This document shows, piece by piece, positions 18,001 through 39,000 of a stretch of 64,000 bases of DNA. The position numbers are program-made. Origin of the DNA: Lytechinus pictus. Taxonomy: Eukaryota. The stretch lies in assembly GCF_037042905.1 (NCBI RefSeq), contig NC_087247.1, positions 13,454,001 to 13,518,000 on the forward strand. Reading direction: 5' to 3'. Numbering within the stretch: the first letter of the stretch is position 1; each line of letters begins with the position of its first letter.

Positions 18001-21000
18001 ATTTTTAACTTTCGAAGAGCTATGGGCATCTTTTCAGAAGTTAGTGCTCCGTCATTTAGTAGGAATCCCATGATAAGGATTATATGCGTCTATTCAGTGA
18101 AGTTTTCCTTGCAGTCCCCATGACTGATGATTTGTAATAAAAAGCCGCTTGCAGAATTCCTGCAGGAAAGACGTGGCTCTGACTTTTGAGAAGGTGCCTT
18201 ATGAAACACCCACCTGGCTAGTTGATCAGTAAATAATGGCGTTTCACCTGTTTTTGGCTACTTGTATTTATTCTCGTACCAGTTTCCCTCTTTCATCCCC
18301 CACCCCTCTCTCACACCTACTCTTCTTTCCCCTCTTCCTCTCACTCTCCTTTCCCTTTCCTTTCTCTCTGTCTTCCTCTGAGCAAATGGAAATTAATCAT
18401 CACCATCTTTATGGGTTTTACACTTGGTTGTGCAACCTCTGGTTACAATATATTTTCCACAAAATAGCGATGCATTTATGACAACCATTTATGAAAGCCT
18501 CTTTACAGTGCATCCCACAAAATAGGAAACTGAGAGTCTCAGCTTTTTAGTTCTTCTTGTCAACAGTTGTCAATGATTTATAGTCTTTCATTGATGTCAT
18601 GAAATTTAGGGGTTTTTCTTCATGCATCACATAATATGAATAGTTCATCCATAGATGATCAAGAAGAAATTTAAATTTCAGTTTAGAAATTAAATGCTCA
18701 GAAAAATGTGTCTAATTTTTTTAATCATTCATTTTAAATTTATTGAATTCTAAGAGAGTAGTTTCACACATGAGTTTCTCCAAAATTATTTCCAACATGC
18801 CCAATTATTTGTAATCATCAGCGTGTGATCATGATTAATGTTGAGGGCGATATCTGACTCTAAAGACATATTTCCTCTTTTGAGGGATGCACTGTACATG
18901 TATACCTTAACCCCCATTTTCATACAGCCATCCAAAATAGAGTGAGCTTCATGGAATTCACATTCACATCGAAAAACATTATTAAACTAATTCTGCAAAG
19001 GAATGGAAAAAACTACCAATTCTCCTCGGATCCAAAATTTCTTATGATAAATGTAAGAAACAATCTAACTTTATCAAATTAATGTATACAAGTATCTAAA
19101 CATATAGCATTGCCAGTTTGAAGTAACCTTTATTCTTATTTTGTAAATGCCATGATATATATTTTTTAATGTATTGCATCTCTTAACCCTAAAAGGACTG
19201 GGCTATTTGAGATGTATTGACTGGGGGGGCCATCTCGGCCACCGATCGCGCCGAAATTTAGCACGCACATTCTTTACCACATAAACTACAAGCCAGCATA
19301 AAAAAATTCTGAAAATAATAATTTTTTATATATTATGAATTATGAATAAAATATGCAAATTTATTCTTGAAAAACATTTGCAAATTTGACACCCATTTTC
19401 ACTTCAAATTTTCTTATTTTTTTCCCAGATGTCATCTTTGTAATCTTTGTAATCTAATTCAAATGTTTTAACAAAGCAAAATTGCAAAAGCCAATTTTTT
19501 CCTTATGTATTTCTTTGTTTTTTCATCTTTTGTTTTTTTCAAAGGAAATTATTACAGACCATTTAACAACAAAATTAAACCCTAAATTAATTAAGCAGTC
19601 CAATAAGAATGAAAAATAATCACCCTTTTATGAATTTCATCTCCCTCAGGCTTTGTACACTAAGTATAAATATGAGCCATTTTCGGCATTACATTGTCTT
19701 GTAAACAGTCACGTGGCGTCGCGATGCTATACCCCGTATGTCGCGAATTTGGTCTCAAAAGTTTGCGTTTCGGAAATATCGCGCGAAGCGTCTAGGGGGG
19801 GCCATCATGGCCCCTCTGTCCAATACAATACAAATAAAATTCAGGACGAAATGTGTTATCAACATGAAAATCTATTCCCGGTAAACAAAATTATTTTCAT
19901 TTTATGAAGTTCACTCTAGTAAAATAAATCCACATGAAACGTTCCCGATTTCAAAATGAAATTTTACCAAGAATGTTGAAAAGTGATTTGTTATTGAGGT
20001 ATCCAAAAATGAATTGAACTTTTACTATTTATGATTTTTCTTTAGGATTATGGAAAATCTTGGGGTTGACCCTGCATGCTTTCATTTGGGTGGGTGTTGG
20101 AATAATTCCTCTCAATAACAAGATAATAGCTGATATGGTGATTTTCAAAGTCGGAAAAAGTTTGCCATCAATTTCAATCCACTTTACAACATTCTACCAA
20201 GTTTCCATCTGAAGGGGGGGGGGGGTGGGGGCAATTATTACTTGGGAATTGCACATTAATAAAGGATGTTTAGAACCAAAAGAATCATCCATTCATTGGA
20301 AAGAATGGATGACATTTTACAGAGAATAATTTTGCTTTACAAATTTGAATAGCATTTTTGGTCACGAGAGAAAAGCTCTCAACTAAGTAATGTGGTGCAA
20401 ATTGTGATGTGATACCAGGAAAATTATTCCATTTTATAAAAAGTTGTAGTAAAAAGGAATGAACTTGATAATTTGCAAAGCTCAATGGGGGATTAAACTA
20501 GACCCACTGCAAGCCAAAATATGACATTTCAGGAAGGGGAGATCATAATGGGTATTGAGGTCACACAAATGCATGAATACAATATAACAAAGCAAGAATT
20601 TAGTTTTCAAAGGATTTATTAAAAAAAAGTTCTTTAAAAAAAAATGACCAGCAGCCAAGAAGATTCATTCAAGTATAGAGGTTACCAAAGCAAATGACCT
20701 CTTTTCATGGAGCAAACCCTATCCCCTCACAAACTGACTAGCAGCCTGATCTAAGCTGGGATCTTCTTGACCAGATCACATGATCATGACGCCACTACCA
20801 ATTACCCATTTTTAAGTGTGCAGGGCGGGGCACTGGACACTGTCATGCATGATATACCCCATCCTTGATGCAGGTGCTTTATTTTCAAGTTCAATTATAC
20901 CCTGCATAGCTGAGGGTATGGAAGACAATGCATTGATTTTCCAAGCAATTTTGTGTTTGTTTGGGGGGAACTTCTCCCACATCATCTACATTTTCCCCCA

Positions 21001-36000: not shown

Positions 36001-39000
36001 CATGAATAAATCAATTTGGCCAACAGATGGACTTGGGTTACTTTCATATTCATGTACCCAATTCTACGACAAGTAGATCCAGGGTAAAAAACCAGAGATA
36101 AAACTCAATAGGGAAAAACTCTGGAAAACCTTTGGATCCACTTTTGCAGAAAAGTCAACACAATATCAAATTTAAAAAGTACAAACTTCATCAAGGTTAA
36201 TCTACAAACTAAGTTAACTCTACAAATAACCTAAATGCCTAATTAGCACACCATTTTAATTCTAATTAAGCATAAGCCTGACAATCACATATAATCAAGA
36301 TATAATAGCTTGGACCTGCTCCTTAGAGCTACACAAAAAATCATTGTACATTACCTAACAAAATGGGTTCATGAGTAGCGAGTGCACATGCGAATCTCAG
36401 AATAGTCAGAATTGATAGTAAAAATATTTTGGAAAATCAACATGTTTAAACCAATATCTGGTTCATTCACTTTGATTTACATTAACAGATATCTCCTGTA
36501 TCAAATAAAAGTCCTGAATTTGACTTGAAGATAATGGTGTTTGCTCCTCTAGACCCTGTTACACAATGGTTTGTGATCGATTGCAAATATAAAACAACTA
36601 TTCTGATTGGTTCCTGTTGTATGCTACAACTATCCTGATTGGCCCCCATGTTTTGTAGATATTTGGTGTCAAGTGCTCAGCTATGCAGATCACCTCTCCC
36701 AAGAATATTTAGAATATGTTTAACCAAAACAGAGAGTTGAGATAATGACTGGTGTCAATAGCAGATCCCTGGCAACTACATCTACCATGAATACTTGAAA
36801 GATTATTAACATAAGATGCAGATCATGCAATCTGTCAGATGCGCTGGTCAGCAAGTTGTCTCTCCCAGGCAAGTCCCATGATGCGTCGGTGCTGATACCC
36901 AGATTCTGCTGAGCGCATAGGCAAAATGATCAGTCAGCGCACTAGTTAAATATGCAACCTGGCTCTGCAAGAGCAGTGCATGAACTACATTTTGATCTAG
37001 ATTGGGGATGATTAAACGGGGATACGATTTTCCAAGATCTATCAATCCTGGTATCAATTTGTATAACTTTTTTATAAGTAGATTATAACACAAACAAGTG
37101 GAGCGCCTGTGGCAGTCTCACCTGCATCACGCGATTCAATATAGCAGCATTGCTGACTTCGAAAACTACTATTAAATAATTATTCACAAAAAACACCATT
37201 CATATAATGATACAATACTACGTTTATAGACAATAAATGACATTTGACCTTGATCATGCAACCTGAGACTTGTCAGTGATACTCGATTACCCCTATATCC
37301 ACATTTTATAAACTATATCTATCAATAATCGCTAGAGGGTATTCATTTGTCTCGCGATCTACTATGTTCAACAAGGAAATTCGTGATCACTCTCGCAAAA
37401 AGTGTTCACTAGCTTTCTAGGAAATTTGTGATCACTCTCGCAAAAAGTGTTCACTAGCTTACAAGTTCACAAGCTTTCGAGTGCCGCTGCAACTCTTTAT
37501 CAAGTGACGAAAATTATCTGATAACGCCTATTGTTCCCGCGTTCGTGCGTACGGTCCTGGGGACTGGTATAAATAGACATCGTTATCAGATAATTTTCGT
37601 CATGTGACTAGAAACTCAGGCAGAATGTTCAGTAATACTTGATTAACCTTATGTCCAAGTTTCATGAACTTGGTCCATATCTTTTTTCAGTTATGATGAC
37701 ATTTCAAAAAACTTAACCTTAGGTTAAGATTTTGATGTTGATTCCCCCCAACATGTAAAGTTCATTGACCCTAAATGACCTTTGACCTTGGTCATGTGAC
37801 CTGAAACTCAGGCAGGGTGTTTAGTAATACTTGATTAACATTATTATGGCCAAGTTTCATGAACTAGGTCCATATACTTTTTAAGTTATGCTGTCATTTC
37901 AAAAACTTAACTTTCGGTTAAGATTTGGTGTTGACGCCGCAGCCGCCGTAAAAGCGGCGCCTATAGTCTCACTCTGCTTCGCAGGTGAGACAATAAACCA
38001 GGCATTTCTTTTTAAAGTAAAGAGGGAATTGTTCATCCTCGGTCACACTAGCAATATTACAATAGTAGTTGCCAGTCCAACCTCGGACAAATAATTCCCT
38101 CCATGTTGTCTCAAAGCCTGGTATATCTGTTTACTATTTGAAGCAATTCATTGAATGTGTTTATCATATCATAATTTTCCATAATTTATCCCCATTGTGC
38201 TGCACTCAATCAATGTGAGATGAATGGAAACCCGGCAGGAATTTAATCCTTGAACACAATTATACTGCATTATTGTAAGTGCTGTGTAAGCAGATGTAGT
38301 TATAATTATCATCATTTGGATCAAAGAAATTATGAAAATTTGAAAAGAAACACTATAGGTCACGAGTTTCATTACGTACTTAATTGTTAATAATAAAAGA
38401 GAAAACTGTTGATAAAACAAAATAAAGGAATTAACTTGAGCCAATTTAGATGTCTTATTGCAAACTCAATTTGAATTCATCTTTCCAAATTCTTGTCATT
38501 GTTGATAATGTCTCTGTTATTAAATTAAGCGCTTACAATACCATGTTAAAATATGCTCTATGCTATTTATATTATTATTTGATGGTCTGAATAAAATCAA
38601 ATCTTGAAACTTGTTAGAAGACGCAATCAACCAAAATGGCACAACTTCAATACTGACCTTCGTTGGCAGGATGTCCAGCAATGACCCCTTGTCCACATTG
38701 ACCTTTATTGCTGATTCAAAAGGCATACTGTTGTCCAGTGGAGGTCAAGGCCTAAGACACGGGCCTTGCCTAACGCTGCTTCCTTGATCCCGGGGTATCC
38801 TTCAGTTTAGTAACAAGACCTGGGGGGGGGTGGTCAAAGAATTACAATGCAGGACTTATTATATCTCCCTATAGTATTATCTTACTATAGTATATTATTA
38901 CCCGTATCAGACATCTGAGCTGGTCATTAACAAAGTCGTATTGCCCTACATTTTTTGAATATCAGGAAAGGATAGGTATATTGTTTGTATTTTCCTCGGT

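What the first reader, a model, noticed from the sequence alone, without database searches (positions are those of the whole stretch)
20940..36850. The fold-back module is tandemly duplicated (~9.4-kb period) with islands of high conservation
Seen: six anchor pairs offset by ~9.2-9.4 kb. Most of the duplicate is heavily diverged and has copy-specific insertions (MITE at 22600 in copy 1 only; MITE at 30302 and SINE at 31461 in copy 2 only). Yet 24650-24876/34085-34311 and 26641-26730/36062-36150 remain about 90% or more identical with no indels. In copy 2 the outer left arm is replaced by the 176-bp satellite, so its conserved right arm could pair only with copy 1's left arm. Inference: selection or gene conversion on specific elements of an old duplication.
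Basis: partly seen in the sequence, partly recalled or inferred. Interest (0 to 1): 0.65.

Follow-up and report, generated by a model that had tools for sequence, protein, structure and literature searches.

The report
Old direct duplication, two conserved islands
A 6-kb stretch downstream of a DNAJC9-like gene was duplicated long ago, and only an exon-like piece and an RNA-hairpin-forming piece have stayed nearly identical, which looks like ordinary selection on two small unannotated elements.

Summary
Self-alignment gives one collinear direct duplication, 20960-26980 and 30137-36392, with offsets of 9164-9438 bp. Alignable background is about 76% identical and 25180-26600 no longer aligns at all.

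Two islands stand out.
- **Island 1** (24651-24875 / 34086-34310, minus strand): 225 nt, 21 differences, no indel, GC 48-50% against 32-33% in the flanks. A 74-codon frame is open in both copies, followed by GTAAGT. The evidence that it codes is weak: P=0.096 for excess synonymous change, a weak acceptor, no conserved upstream ATG and no poly(A) signal.
- **Island 2**: a 115-nt hairpin at 26628-26742. Its 89-nt core has 3 differences, all in the terminal loop. Its left edge in copy 2 is the edge of a copy-specific MITE.

The fold-back is an older palindrome present in both copies. Its left outer arm is a decayed inverted copy of island 1, 72-74% identical.

I favour selection on two minus-strand elements. 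Old gene conversion cannot be excluded for island 1. No transcript data or orthologous loci could be examined. This is an ordinary finding of modest interest.

The parts
20960..26980 (.). Copy 1 of the direct duplication
   Evidence: Collinear HSPs with offsets 9164-9438. Right end read from the alignment.
30137..36392 (.). Copy 2 of the direct duplication
24651..24875 (-). Island 1, copy 1: a 225-nt exon-like unit. AAG acceptor-like site at 24876-24878, a 74-codon open frame ending in TAA at 24652-24654, then GTAAGT at 24645-24650.
   Evidence: GC 48% against 32-33% in the flanks.
34086..34310 (-). Island 1, copy 2: the same unit with 21 differences in 226 nt, no indel, and the frame and TAA kept.
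24566..24650 (-). Flank downstream of island 1 (34002-34085 in copy 2) that is also conserved, at about 86%.
   Evidence: 11 c1-c2 differences in 81 ungapped columns.
26628..26742 (-). Island 2, copy 1: a 115-nt hairpin with 38 predicted pairs and MFE -41.4 kcal/mol on the minus strand.
36060..36163 (-). Island 2, copy 2: the hairpin. Its left basal-stem strand lies at 35806-35815, on the far side of a MITE.
35816..36059 (.). Copy-2-only MITE-like insertion at the foot of the hairpin (37-nt TIRs, 84% identical; AATT on both sides).
20630..20950 (+). Left outer arm: a decayed inverted copy of island 1 plus its flank. It is 74.1% identical to copy 1 and 72.5% to copy 2, the frame is broken, and TGA sits where the others have TAA.
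21149..21442 (.). Inner left-arm patches of copy 1, paired with 24402-24240. The copy 2 equivalents are 30202-31328 paired with 33704-32969.
26886..26980 (.). The last conserved block (about 70-80% identical), upstream of the hairpin on the minus strand. Copy 2 equivalent: 36287-36392.
29370..30108 (.). Satellite of 177 bp x 4.2 copies, next to the start of copy 2.
22600..22813 (.). Copy-1-only MITE (34-nt TIRs).
30302..30503 (.). Copy-2-only palindromic MITE-like insertion.
31461..31700 (+). Copy-2-only SINE-like insertion with a tRNA-like head. The right end is approximate.
34709..34925 (.). Copy-2-only MITE (26-nt TIRs). A second copy lies at 15381-15579.

Best explanation
About 6 kb lying 6.4 kb beyond the 3' end of a DNAJC9-like gene was duplicated in direct orientation long ago. 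Background divergence is about 24-28%. The stretch already contained an older palindrome.

Since then almost everything has drifted and been broken up by MITE and SINE insertions and by deletions. Two small elements on the minus strand have been kept by purifying selection in both copies:
(i) a 225-nt, GC-rich, exon-like unit with an open 74-codon frame;
(ii) 1.75 kb upstream of it on the same strand, a 115-nt hairpin in which the stems are kept and the loops vary.

Inferred, not shown: each copy is, or lies within, a minus-strand transcription unit. In that unit the hairpin acts as RNA, either as a small-RNA precursor or as a structural element of the transcript, and island 1 is an exon, coding or not. 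The left outer arm of the palindrome is a dead inverted copy of that exon and serves as a neutral yardstick.
For: Shown:
- Collinear duplication with heterogeneous identity.
- Island 1 has 21 differences in 226 nt and no indel, while neighbouring blocks carry many gaps.
- The frame is open in both copies. Differences by codon position are 3/7/11, with dN 0.075 and dS 0.19.
- A stop codon sits at the same place in all three copies: TAA, TAA, TGA.
- GC is 48-50% in both copies and still 46% in the decayed arm, against 32% in the flanks. The composition is therefore ancestral, not a by-product of conversion.
- Long-term constraint: the decayed arm aligns to island 1 over all 320 nt at 74%, whereas the rest of the arms align only in 47-121-nt patches (71-79% within them), or 46-60% overall. 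Private changes in the exon part are 51 for the left arm against 6 for copy 1 and 11 for copy 2.
- One outside relative, P0003, matches in the same frame at 44% over 68 residues with no gap. The match starts within 1-2 codons of the putative acceptor.
- Hairpin: z-scores of -3.7 to -5.2. The minus strand folds 7-9 kcal/mol more stably than the plus strand.
- All 3 differences in the 89-nt core lie in the 21-nt terminal loop. By hand, (21/89)^3 = 0.013.
- Of 9 differing columns out of 116, none falls in the 60 columns that pair in both folds.
- By eye, the basal stem carries an A-U to G-C double change.
- The hairpin lies among sequence that no longer aligns, which leaves little homology to start a conversion event.
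Against: Against island 1 being coding:
- Excess of synonymous change: P=0.096.
- Chance of such an open frame in shuffled sequence: 0.052.
- Chance that the frame stays open after 21 random changes: 0.39 (all).
- The acceptor is a weak AAG behind a purine-rich stretch.
- The stop lies 1 nt before the GTAAGT.
- There is no conserved AATAAA or ATTAAA within about 950 nt downstream.
- No conserved upstream exon or ATG was found.
- No Pfam or PDB relative, and none in two word-based protein searches. P0003 is a singleton from a 696-bp contig.

Against selection as the sole cause at island 1: the 82-nt flank downstream is nearly as conserved as the exon-like part (11/81 against 21/220 differences). 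An old conversion tract covering 24566-24885 would give the same picture.

Against the hairpin evidence:
- The 'none in paired columns' count is partly circular, because a disruptive change removes that pair from the shared set.
- Stability alone is unremarkable here: 260 of 8520 windows of 115 nt fold at least as well.
- No Rfam family matches.
- In copy 2 a MITE splits the basal stem.

No transcript data of any kind were available.
Confidence: 0.55

Rival explanations
1. Gene conversion alone. The islands are stretches that the two copies exchanged well after the duplication, and they have no function of their own.
For: Island 1 and its 82-nt flank show similar divergence (9.5% and 13.6%), as a single tract of about 320 nt would. 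The two copies lie only 9.4 kb apart in direct orientation.
Against: All hairpin core differences sit in the terminal loop. The hairpin is about 100 nt surrounded by sequence that no longer aligns. Island 1 is also better preserved than the rest of the arm against the much older inverted copy, and its GC richness is ancestral. The open frame and the stop position are kept.
Confidence: 0.12
2. Fold-back hairpin RNA (hpRNA-like). A minus-strand transcript spans both arms. The right arms are conserved because they pair with the single left arm and yield small RNAs against the gene that owns the exon.
For: The anatomy fits: an inverted copy of about 320 nt of an exon-like unit lies 3.6 kb away. 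Published hpRNA clusters include tandem arrays whose arms are homologous to exons (PMC10317233, passages read). The arms could still form an imperfect RNA duplex: -384 kcal/mol against -129 +/- 7 for shuffles, 275 of 326 nt paired, longest helix 39 bp counting G.U. Transitions favour G.U on a minus-strand transcript: 36:14 and 40:14, or 29:11 after correcting for base content, P=0.011.
Against: Arm identity is 72-74% with 13 gap openings. The longest exact complementary run is 17 nt to copy 1 and 13 nt to copy 2. The hpRNA paper describes 'near perfect complementarity' for its tandem hpRNA cluster. The left arm changes at a neutral-looking rate, with 51 private changes in 220 columns. Transversions, which always break pairs, are not depleted: 32 of 72 changes against a background ts/tv of 0.98. 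The same transition bias appears on the right-arm branches (16:3), and the base skew runs in the same direction over 18-46 kb. Both are as expected from a mutational strand bias in a transcribed region.
Confidence: 0.08
3. Duplicated cis-regulatory DNA. Both islands are conserved non-coding elements (enhancers or insulators) for neighbouring genes. They act as DNA, not as RNA.
For: No family, transcript or start codon ties either island to a gene product. High identity without indels is also typical of such elements. The evidence that island 1 codes is not significant.
Against: The stems-conserved, loop-variable pattern and the re-formed basal stem are what an RNA or DNA hairpin predicts, not a row of binding sites. 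Island 1 keeps a 74-codon frame, a stop at one position in three copies and a GTAAGT.
Confidence: 0.15
4. Mobile-element origin. Island 2 is a tiny palindromic MITE and island 1 belongs to a dispersed repeat. Their similarity reflects younger insertions rather than constraint.
For: The window is full of MITEs and palindromes. Island 2 has inverted ends. Island 1 occurs three times here and has one relative elsewhere.
Against: Both islands sit at collinear offsets (9421 and 9435-9436). There are no further copies in the 64 kb. Island 2 has no target-site duplication (sequence). Homology of the flanks continues at background level on both sides.
Confidence: 0.05

Closest known systems
Old tandem or segmental gene duplicates in which exons stay alike while introns and spacers decay
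   Same: Direct repeat, constant offset, about 76% background identity, sharply better-kept short units, copy-specific transposon insertions.
   Different: Only one exon-like unit per copy. No start codon, upstream exon or known protein family was found, so a complete gene pair is not shown.
Tandemly duplicated microRNA genes (pre-miRNA hairpins: arms conserved, loop free to vary). This comparison rests on my own knowledge, not on a call.
   Same: A hairpin of about 90-115 nt. Minus-strand MFE index 0.93-0.94. All core differences lie in the terminal loop. There are two copies in a direct duplication.
   Different: Large internal loops (3x6 and 2x1) fall in the part that would hold the mature duplex. 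No Rfam family matches. No small-RNA reads are available. A MITE splits the basal stem in copy 2.
Drosophila hairpin-RNA (hpRNA) loci, including tandem clusters (PMC10317233; passages read)
   Same: An inverted duplicate of a stretch of about 200-300 nt of exon, and tandem repetition of the module.
   Different: The arms here are 72-74% identical, against near-perfect there. The locus is old rather than young. The second copy lacks one arm.
Competing or bridging intronic RNA pairings that choose between duplicated exons. This comparison rests on my own knowledge, not on a call.
   Same: An identical complementary element lies upstream of each duplicated exon-like unit on the same strand.
   Different: Each element is self-complementary, no separate docking site is seen, and no splicing data exist.

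Membership tests
Direct (tandem-type) segmental duplication | Collinear same-strand homology at a near-constant offset, beyond chance | tested here: met
   8 HSPs at E<=1e-5 with offsets 9164-9436; 13 in the sensitive run.
Direct (tandem-type) segmental duplication | Copies adjacent without a spacer | tested here: not met
   A 3.2-kb spacer (26980-30137) has no counterpart after copy 2.
Protein-coding exon | Reading frame open in all functional copies and broken in the dead copy | tested here: met
   74 codons open in both copies; the left arm has stops and frameshifts. The chance of such a frame in shuffled sequence is 0.052.
Protein-coding exon | Excess of synonymous over non-synonymous change | tested here: inconclusive
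   dN/dS is about 0.39. 9 synonymous and 12 non-synonymous changes, P=0.096.
Protein-coding exon | Usable splice sites, a start codon or upstream coding exon, and a poly(A) signal if terminal | tested here: not met
   GTAAGT is good, but the acceptor is a weak AAG. No conserved ATG or upstream exon was found. No conserved AATAAA or ATTAAA lies downstream.
Protein-coding exon | Relatives among known proteins | tested here: inconclusive
   Of 3 hits at E<=0.001, one is a real relative: a singleton, P0003, at E=2.3e-4. The other two are repeat proteins matched in 7-8 stretches, which I read as noise. Pfam 0, PDB 0 below E=0.9. Word-based searches found none.
microRNA precursor | Stable hairpin of pre-miRNA size on one strand | tested here: met
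   z-scores of -4.4 to -5.2 on the minus strand. MFE index 0.93-0.94. However, 260 of 8520 windows fold at least as well.
microRNA precursor | Arms conserved, loop variable | tested here: met
   All 3 core differences lie in the terminal loop. Only two sequences are available.
microRNA precursor | Small RNAs of about 22 nt with Drosha/Dicer-type ends, or membership of a described family | not testable with these tools
   No read data. No Rfam match. The arm strings are not found in the paper library.
hpRNA / endo-siRNA locus | Long inverted repeat with near-perfect complementarity | tested here: not met
   72-74% identity; longest exact run 17 nt.
hpRNA / endo-siRNA locus | Dicer-dependent siRNAs from the arms | not testable with these tools
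   No small-RNA data.
Gene-conversion tract | A contiguous stretch of raised identity whose differences are placed without regard to function | tested here: inconclusive
   Island 1 and its flank fit. Island 2 does not, because its differences avoid the stems.
MITE (for island 2) | Terminal inverted repeats, a target-site duplication and dispersed copies | tested here: not met
   Inverted ends are present, but there is no duplication of flanking bases. The only copies are the two collinear ones in 64 kb. The whole genome could not be searched.

The most novel reading that the evidence does not exclude
The two hairpins have identical arms and lie 9.4 kb apart on one long minus-strand transcript, bracketing the upstream copy of the exon-like unit. 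Each hairpin could fold on itself. Alternatively, the 5' arm of the upstream hairpin could pair with the 3' arm of the downstream one. That would loop out copy 2 of the exon, so the transcript would use copy 1 instead. This would be a competing-structure switch between duplicated exons. It would also explain why both arms must stay identical in both copies while the loops drift. Nothing here tests it. It needs a shared upstream promoter and shared upstream exons beyond 36.4 kb, and none were found.
Probability: 0.05. Interest if true: 0.6.

Novelty: new member of a known kind. Interest (0 to 1): 0.3.

Why it matters
If the reading is right, the locus holds two unannotated, lineage-restricted elements that have outlasted about 25% neutral divergence in duplicate: a structured RNA hairpin and an exon-like unit. 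They would be worth adding to the annotation of this genome and worth checking in small-RNA data.

The decayed inverted arm is a convenient internal neutral control. The strand-biased transitions hint that a long minus-strand transcript runs through the region and converges on DNAJC9.

None of this changes a general principle. Old duplicates with conserved islands are common.

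Tried and rejected
**Searches that gave nothing**
- Rfam at gathering scores on the whole window: 0 matches.
- Rfam E-value mode on 20-37.5 kb: 3 weak matches, none on an island.
- Rfam E-value mode on the hairpin alone: 5 noise matches, best E=0.71.
- ARAGORN: 0 tRNAs.
- Pfam on both island-1 frames and on the hairpin frame: nothing below E=0.1.
- Pfam on 10 further ORFs from 36-54 kb, looking for upstream exons: nothing meaningful.
- PDB profile search: best E=0.94.
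- Word-based protein searches, longer and near lengths: none.
- A search with P0003 found only itself.
- Near-perfect targets of the hairpin arms in the window: none with fewer than 4 mismatches in 20 nt.
- Hairpin arm strings in the paper library: 0 papers.

**Tests that were uninformative**
- A short 'SWDLPxR' likeness at 36723-36929 is 7/13 residues with no nucleotide support. I treat it as chance.
- Island 1 as a structured RNA: z = -0.32.
- A C/D-box look-alike after island 1 (TGATGA ... CTGA, seen by eye in copy 1 only) is not kept in copy 2.
- A singleton-variant test in the satellite, meant as an independent measure of strand bias, gave 7:5 and says nothing.

- Six-frame Pfam scanning of whole stretches is not possible in the tool because of stop codons.
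- Structure prediction was not ready, then failed, then was not ready again. No model was obtained.

**Left unchecked**
- Orthologous loci and genome-wide copy number.
- Paper supplements were not consulted.

Full report
**Context**

The window has no N. I take it to be a non-human animal genome. On the plus strand it carries a DNAJC9-like gene in five exon-sized frames:
- about 2973-3083;
- within 5964-6206;
- within 8217-8504;
- within 13112-13429;
- within 14038-14253, which ends in a stop.

I scanned the four frames after the first one by one. Two of them matched Pfam: DnaJ at E=1.3e-13 and the DNAJC9 HTH domain at E=1.5e-24. I made no joined spliced model. The rest of the window is rich in LINE fragments, MITEs, palindromes and satellites. 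The finding lies about 6.4 kb beyond the DNAJC9 stop.

**The duplication is real**

Self-BLAST gives 8 collinear same-strand HSPs with offsets of 9164-9436. A more sensitive run gives 13 at E<1e-5. Homology runs from 20960 to about 26980 in copy 1 and from 30137 to about 36392 in copy 2. A 3.2-kb spacer separates the copies. It contains a 177-bp x 4.2 satellite at 29370-30108.

Background identity:
- Alignable blocks outside the islands have 1236 matches, 194 transitions and 197 transversions, which is 76.0%.
- The stretch 25180-26600 against 34600-36020 no longer aligns.

- a MITE at 22600-22813;
- a palindromic MITE-like element at 30302-30503;
- a SINE with a tRNA-like head from about 31461 (below the gathering score).

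They also account for two more MITEs found only in copy 2, at 34709-34925 and 35816-36059.

**Identity is not uniform**

Against 28% divergence these give binomial P values of 4.8e-12 and 1.5e-9. A third, weaker rise to 87-88% lies at 21896-22030. A four-way alignment shows it to be the inner end of the palindrome arms, and nothing more could be read from it.

**Island 1**

On the minus strand, 24875-24651 is 225 nt long. It is preceded by a T-rich run and AAG and followed by GTAAGT. One frame is open for 74 codons in both copies and ends in TAA one base before the GTAAGT.

The two copies differ at 21 positions with no indel. By codon position the differences are 3, 7 and 11. dN is 0.075 and dS is 0.19. 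GC is 48-50% against 32-33% in the flanks.

The evidence that it codes is suggestive, not significant (all):
- 9 synonymous and 12 non-synonymous changes, P=0.096;
- an open frame this long appears in 5.2% of shuffles;
- 21 random changes leave the frame open 39% of the time.

Other points count against a complete coding exon:
- The acceptor is weak.
- No conserved ATG or upstream exon was found.
- No conserved poly(A) signal follows within about 950 nt.

Pfam, PDB and two word-based protein searches found nothing. A full HMMER scan of 1.8 billion representatives returned 3 hits at E<=0.001. Two are repeat proteins matched in 7-8 stretches, which I read as noise. One, P0003 (129 aa), is a real relative: 30 of 68 residues identical, no gap, same frame, with the match starting within 1-2 codons of the putative acceptor. 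P0003 is a singleton from a 696-bp contig.

**The inverted third copy**

20630-20950 on the plus strand is an inverted copy of island 1 plus its 80-nt flank. It is 74.1% identical to copy 1 and 72.5% to copy 2, with 13 and 12 gap openings respectively. Its frame is broken, but TGA sits where the others have TAA.

It is the outer end of a much longer old palindrome. Inner arm patches pair as follows:
- copy 1: 21149-21214 with 24402-24338, and 21370-21442 with 24315-24240;
- copy 2: 30202-30248 with 33704-33658, 30541-30658 with 33559-33439, and 31273-31328 with 33028-32969.

Informative sites favour a left-with-left, right-with-right grouping by 14 to 8 to 3. The palindrome therefore came first and the direct duplication second.

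Copy 2 lacks the outer left arm, and the satellite occupies that position. Either the arm was lost there or the duplication breakpoint fell at about 20955. I cannot tell which.

**Selection or conversion at island 1**

Three-way counts in the exon part are 51 changes private to the left arm, 6 to copy 1, 11 to copy 2, and 4 where all three differ. In the 82-nt flank the counts are 17, 3, 5 and 3.

Evidence for long-term constraint on the right-arm lineage since the palindrome formed:
- The dead arm aligns to island 1 along its whole length at 74%. The remainder of the arms aligns only in 47-121-nt patches, or at 46-60% overall.
- The dead arm still has 46% GC, so the GC richness is ancestral.

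This pattern is not what a late exchange between the two copies alone would give.

Evidence on the other side: the flank is almost as conserved as the exon-like part. An old conversion tract over 24566-24885 therefore cannot be excluded.

**Island 2**

26628-26742 folds into a long hairpin:
- z-scores are -3.7 to -5.2.
- The MFE is -41.4 and -48.4 kcal/mol on the minus strand, against -32.5 and -41.8 on the plus strand.
- The minus-strand MFE index is 0.93-0.94.

The 89-nt core has 3 differences, all in the 21-nt terminal loop. By hand, the chance of that is (21/89)^3 = 0.013.

Over the full element, 9 of 116 columns differ and none lies in the 60 columns that pair in both folds. This count is partly circular, because a disruptive change would remove its pair from the shared set.

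In copy 2 a MITE with 37-nt inverted ends and AATT on both sides sits between the basal-stem strand (35806-35815) and the rest of the hairpin. The predicted fold still closes the basal stem around it. By eye, that stem carries one A-U to G-C double change.

Other points:
- Stability alone is not special in this repeat-rich window: 260 of 8520 windows fold at least as well.
- No Rfam family matches.
- No further copy exists in the window.
- The hairpin is about 100 nt amid sequence that no longer aligns, and its differences avoid the stems. I read this as selection on structure.

**The fold-back as RNA**

The arms could still form an imperfect duplex:
- The energy is -384 kcal/mol, against -129 +/- 7 for shuffles and -654 for a perfect partner.
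- 275 of 326 nt are paired.
- The longest helix is 39 bp counting G.U.
- The longest exact runs are 17 and 13 nt.

Transitions between the arms are strand-biased. 36 against 14 (copy 1) and 40 against 14 (copy 2) would leave G.U on a minus-strand transcript. After correcting for base content the count is 29 against 11, P=0.011. Changes polarised onto the right-arm branches are 16 against 3 in the same sense. The inner arms give 19 against 12, which is not significant.

This could mean that pairing is preserved. I think a mutational strand bias in a region transcribed from the minus strand is more likely, for three reasons:
- Transversions, which always break pairs, are not depleted (32 of 72, against a background ts/tv of 0.98).
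- The left arm evolves at a neutral-looking rate.
- The minus strand shows a mild G and T excess over 18-46 kb, with G*T/(A*C) of 1.2 overall and 1.56 in the old central spacer.

Such biases in transcribed DNA are described in the literature. I saw only the abstracts listed for PMC1559705 and PMC1391917. Published hpRNA loci have near-perfect arms (PMC10317233, passages read). At best this palindrome is a long-dead one.

**Verdict**

The most likely account is an old direct duplication in which purifying selection has kept an exon-like unit and an RNA hairpin on the minus strand. The palindrome's left arm is a decayed by-product.

What the two elements do is inferred, not shown. There were no transcript data, no orthologous loci and no genome-wide copy counts.

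Noticed in passing
window 2973-14253 (+): A five-exon DNAJC9-like gene. The DnaJ domain lies in the frame at 5964-6206 and the DNAJC9 HTH domain in the frame at 13112-13429. A LINE reverse-transcriptase fragment (3681-4560) sits in its first intron.
   Followed up: partly
window 20630-20950 vs 24569-24894 and 34005-34329: Transitions between the palindrome arms are strongly strand-biased, with an excess of A>G and C>T on the minus strand in both arms (45 against 14 overall). This means either a mutational bias from minus-strand transcription or tolerance of G.U pairs in a hairpin transcript. The two were not separated.
   Followed up: partly
window 18000-46000: A mild excess of G and T on the minus strand (G*T/(A*C) = 1.2 overall, 1.56 at 22020-23800). 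This hints at a long minus-strand transcription unit converging on DNAJC9. No exons for it were found.
   Followed up: partly
window 33619-33844: A stretch of about 226 bp present in copy 2 but missing from copy 1. It contains a right-arm patch (33658-33704) that pairs with 30202-30248, so it is a deletion in copy 1 rather than an insertion in copy 2.
   Followed up: partly
window 21180-21205, 24345-24370, 30570-30595, 33470-33495 (approximate): A motif of about 18 nt (GTACCTCCCTGTACTATC and near variants) is kept in all four palindrome arms. GCAATGTCAAAT is likewise kept at the inner arm ends.
   Followed up: no
window 58726-59072 and 62353-62830: Two arrays of a 21/64-bp ACGT-rich satellite in inverted orientation, up to 98% identical, 3.3 kb apart.
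   Followed up: no
window 1817-1941, 48351-48711, 49263-49745: Near-perfect self-complementary elements (97%, 80% and 91%). They are the most stable hairpins in the window and are probably palindromic MITEs.
   Followed up: no
window 53086-53809 and 57260-58454: Satellite arrays with periods of about 134 bp and about 41/103/124 bp. The first adjoins a reverse-transcriptase fragment (52842-53177; RVT_1, E=5.5e-6, below the Pfam cut-off).
   Followed up: no
window 24553-24634 (-): In copy 1 only, a TGATGA ... CTGA pair about 75 nt apart just after island 1 resembles C and D boxes. The CTGA is not kept in copy 2, and Rfam reports no snoRNA there.
   Followed up: partly
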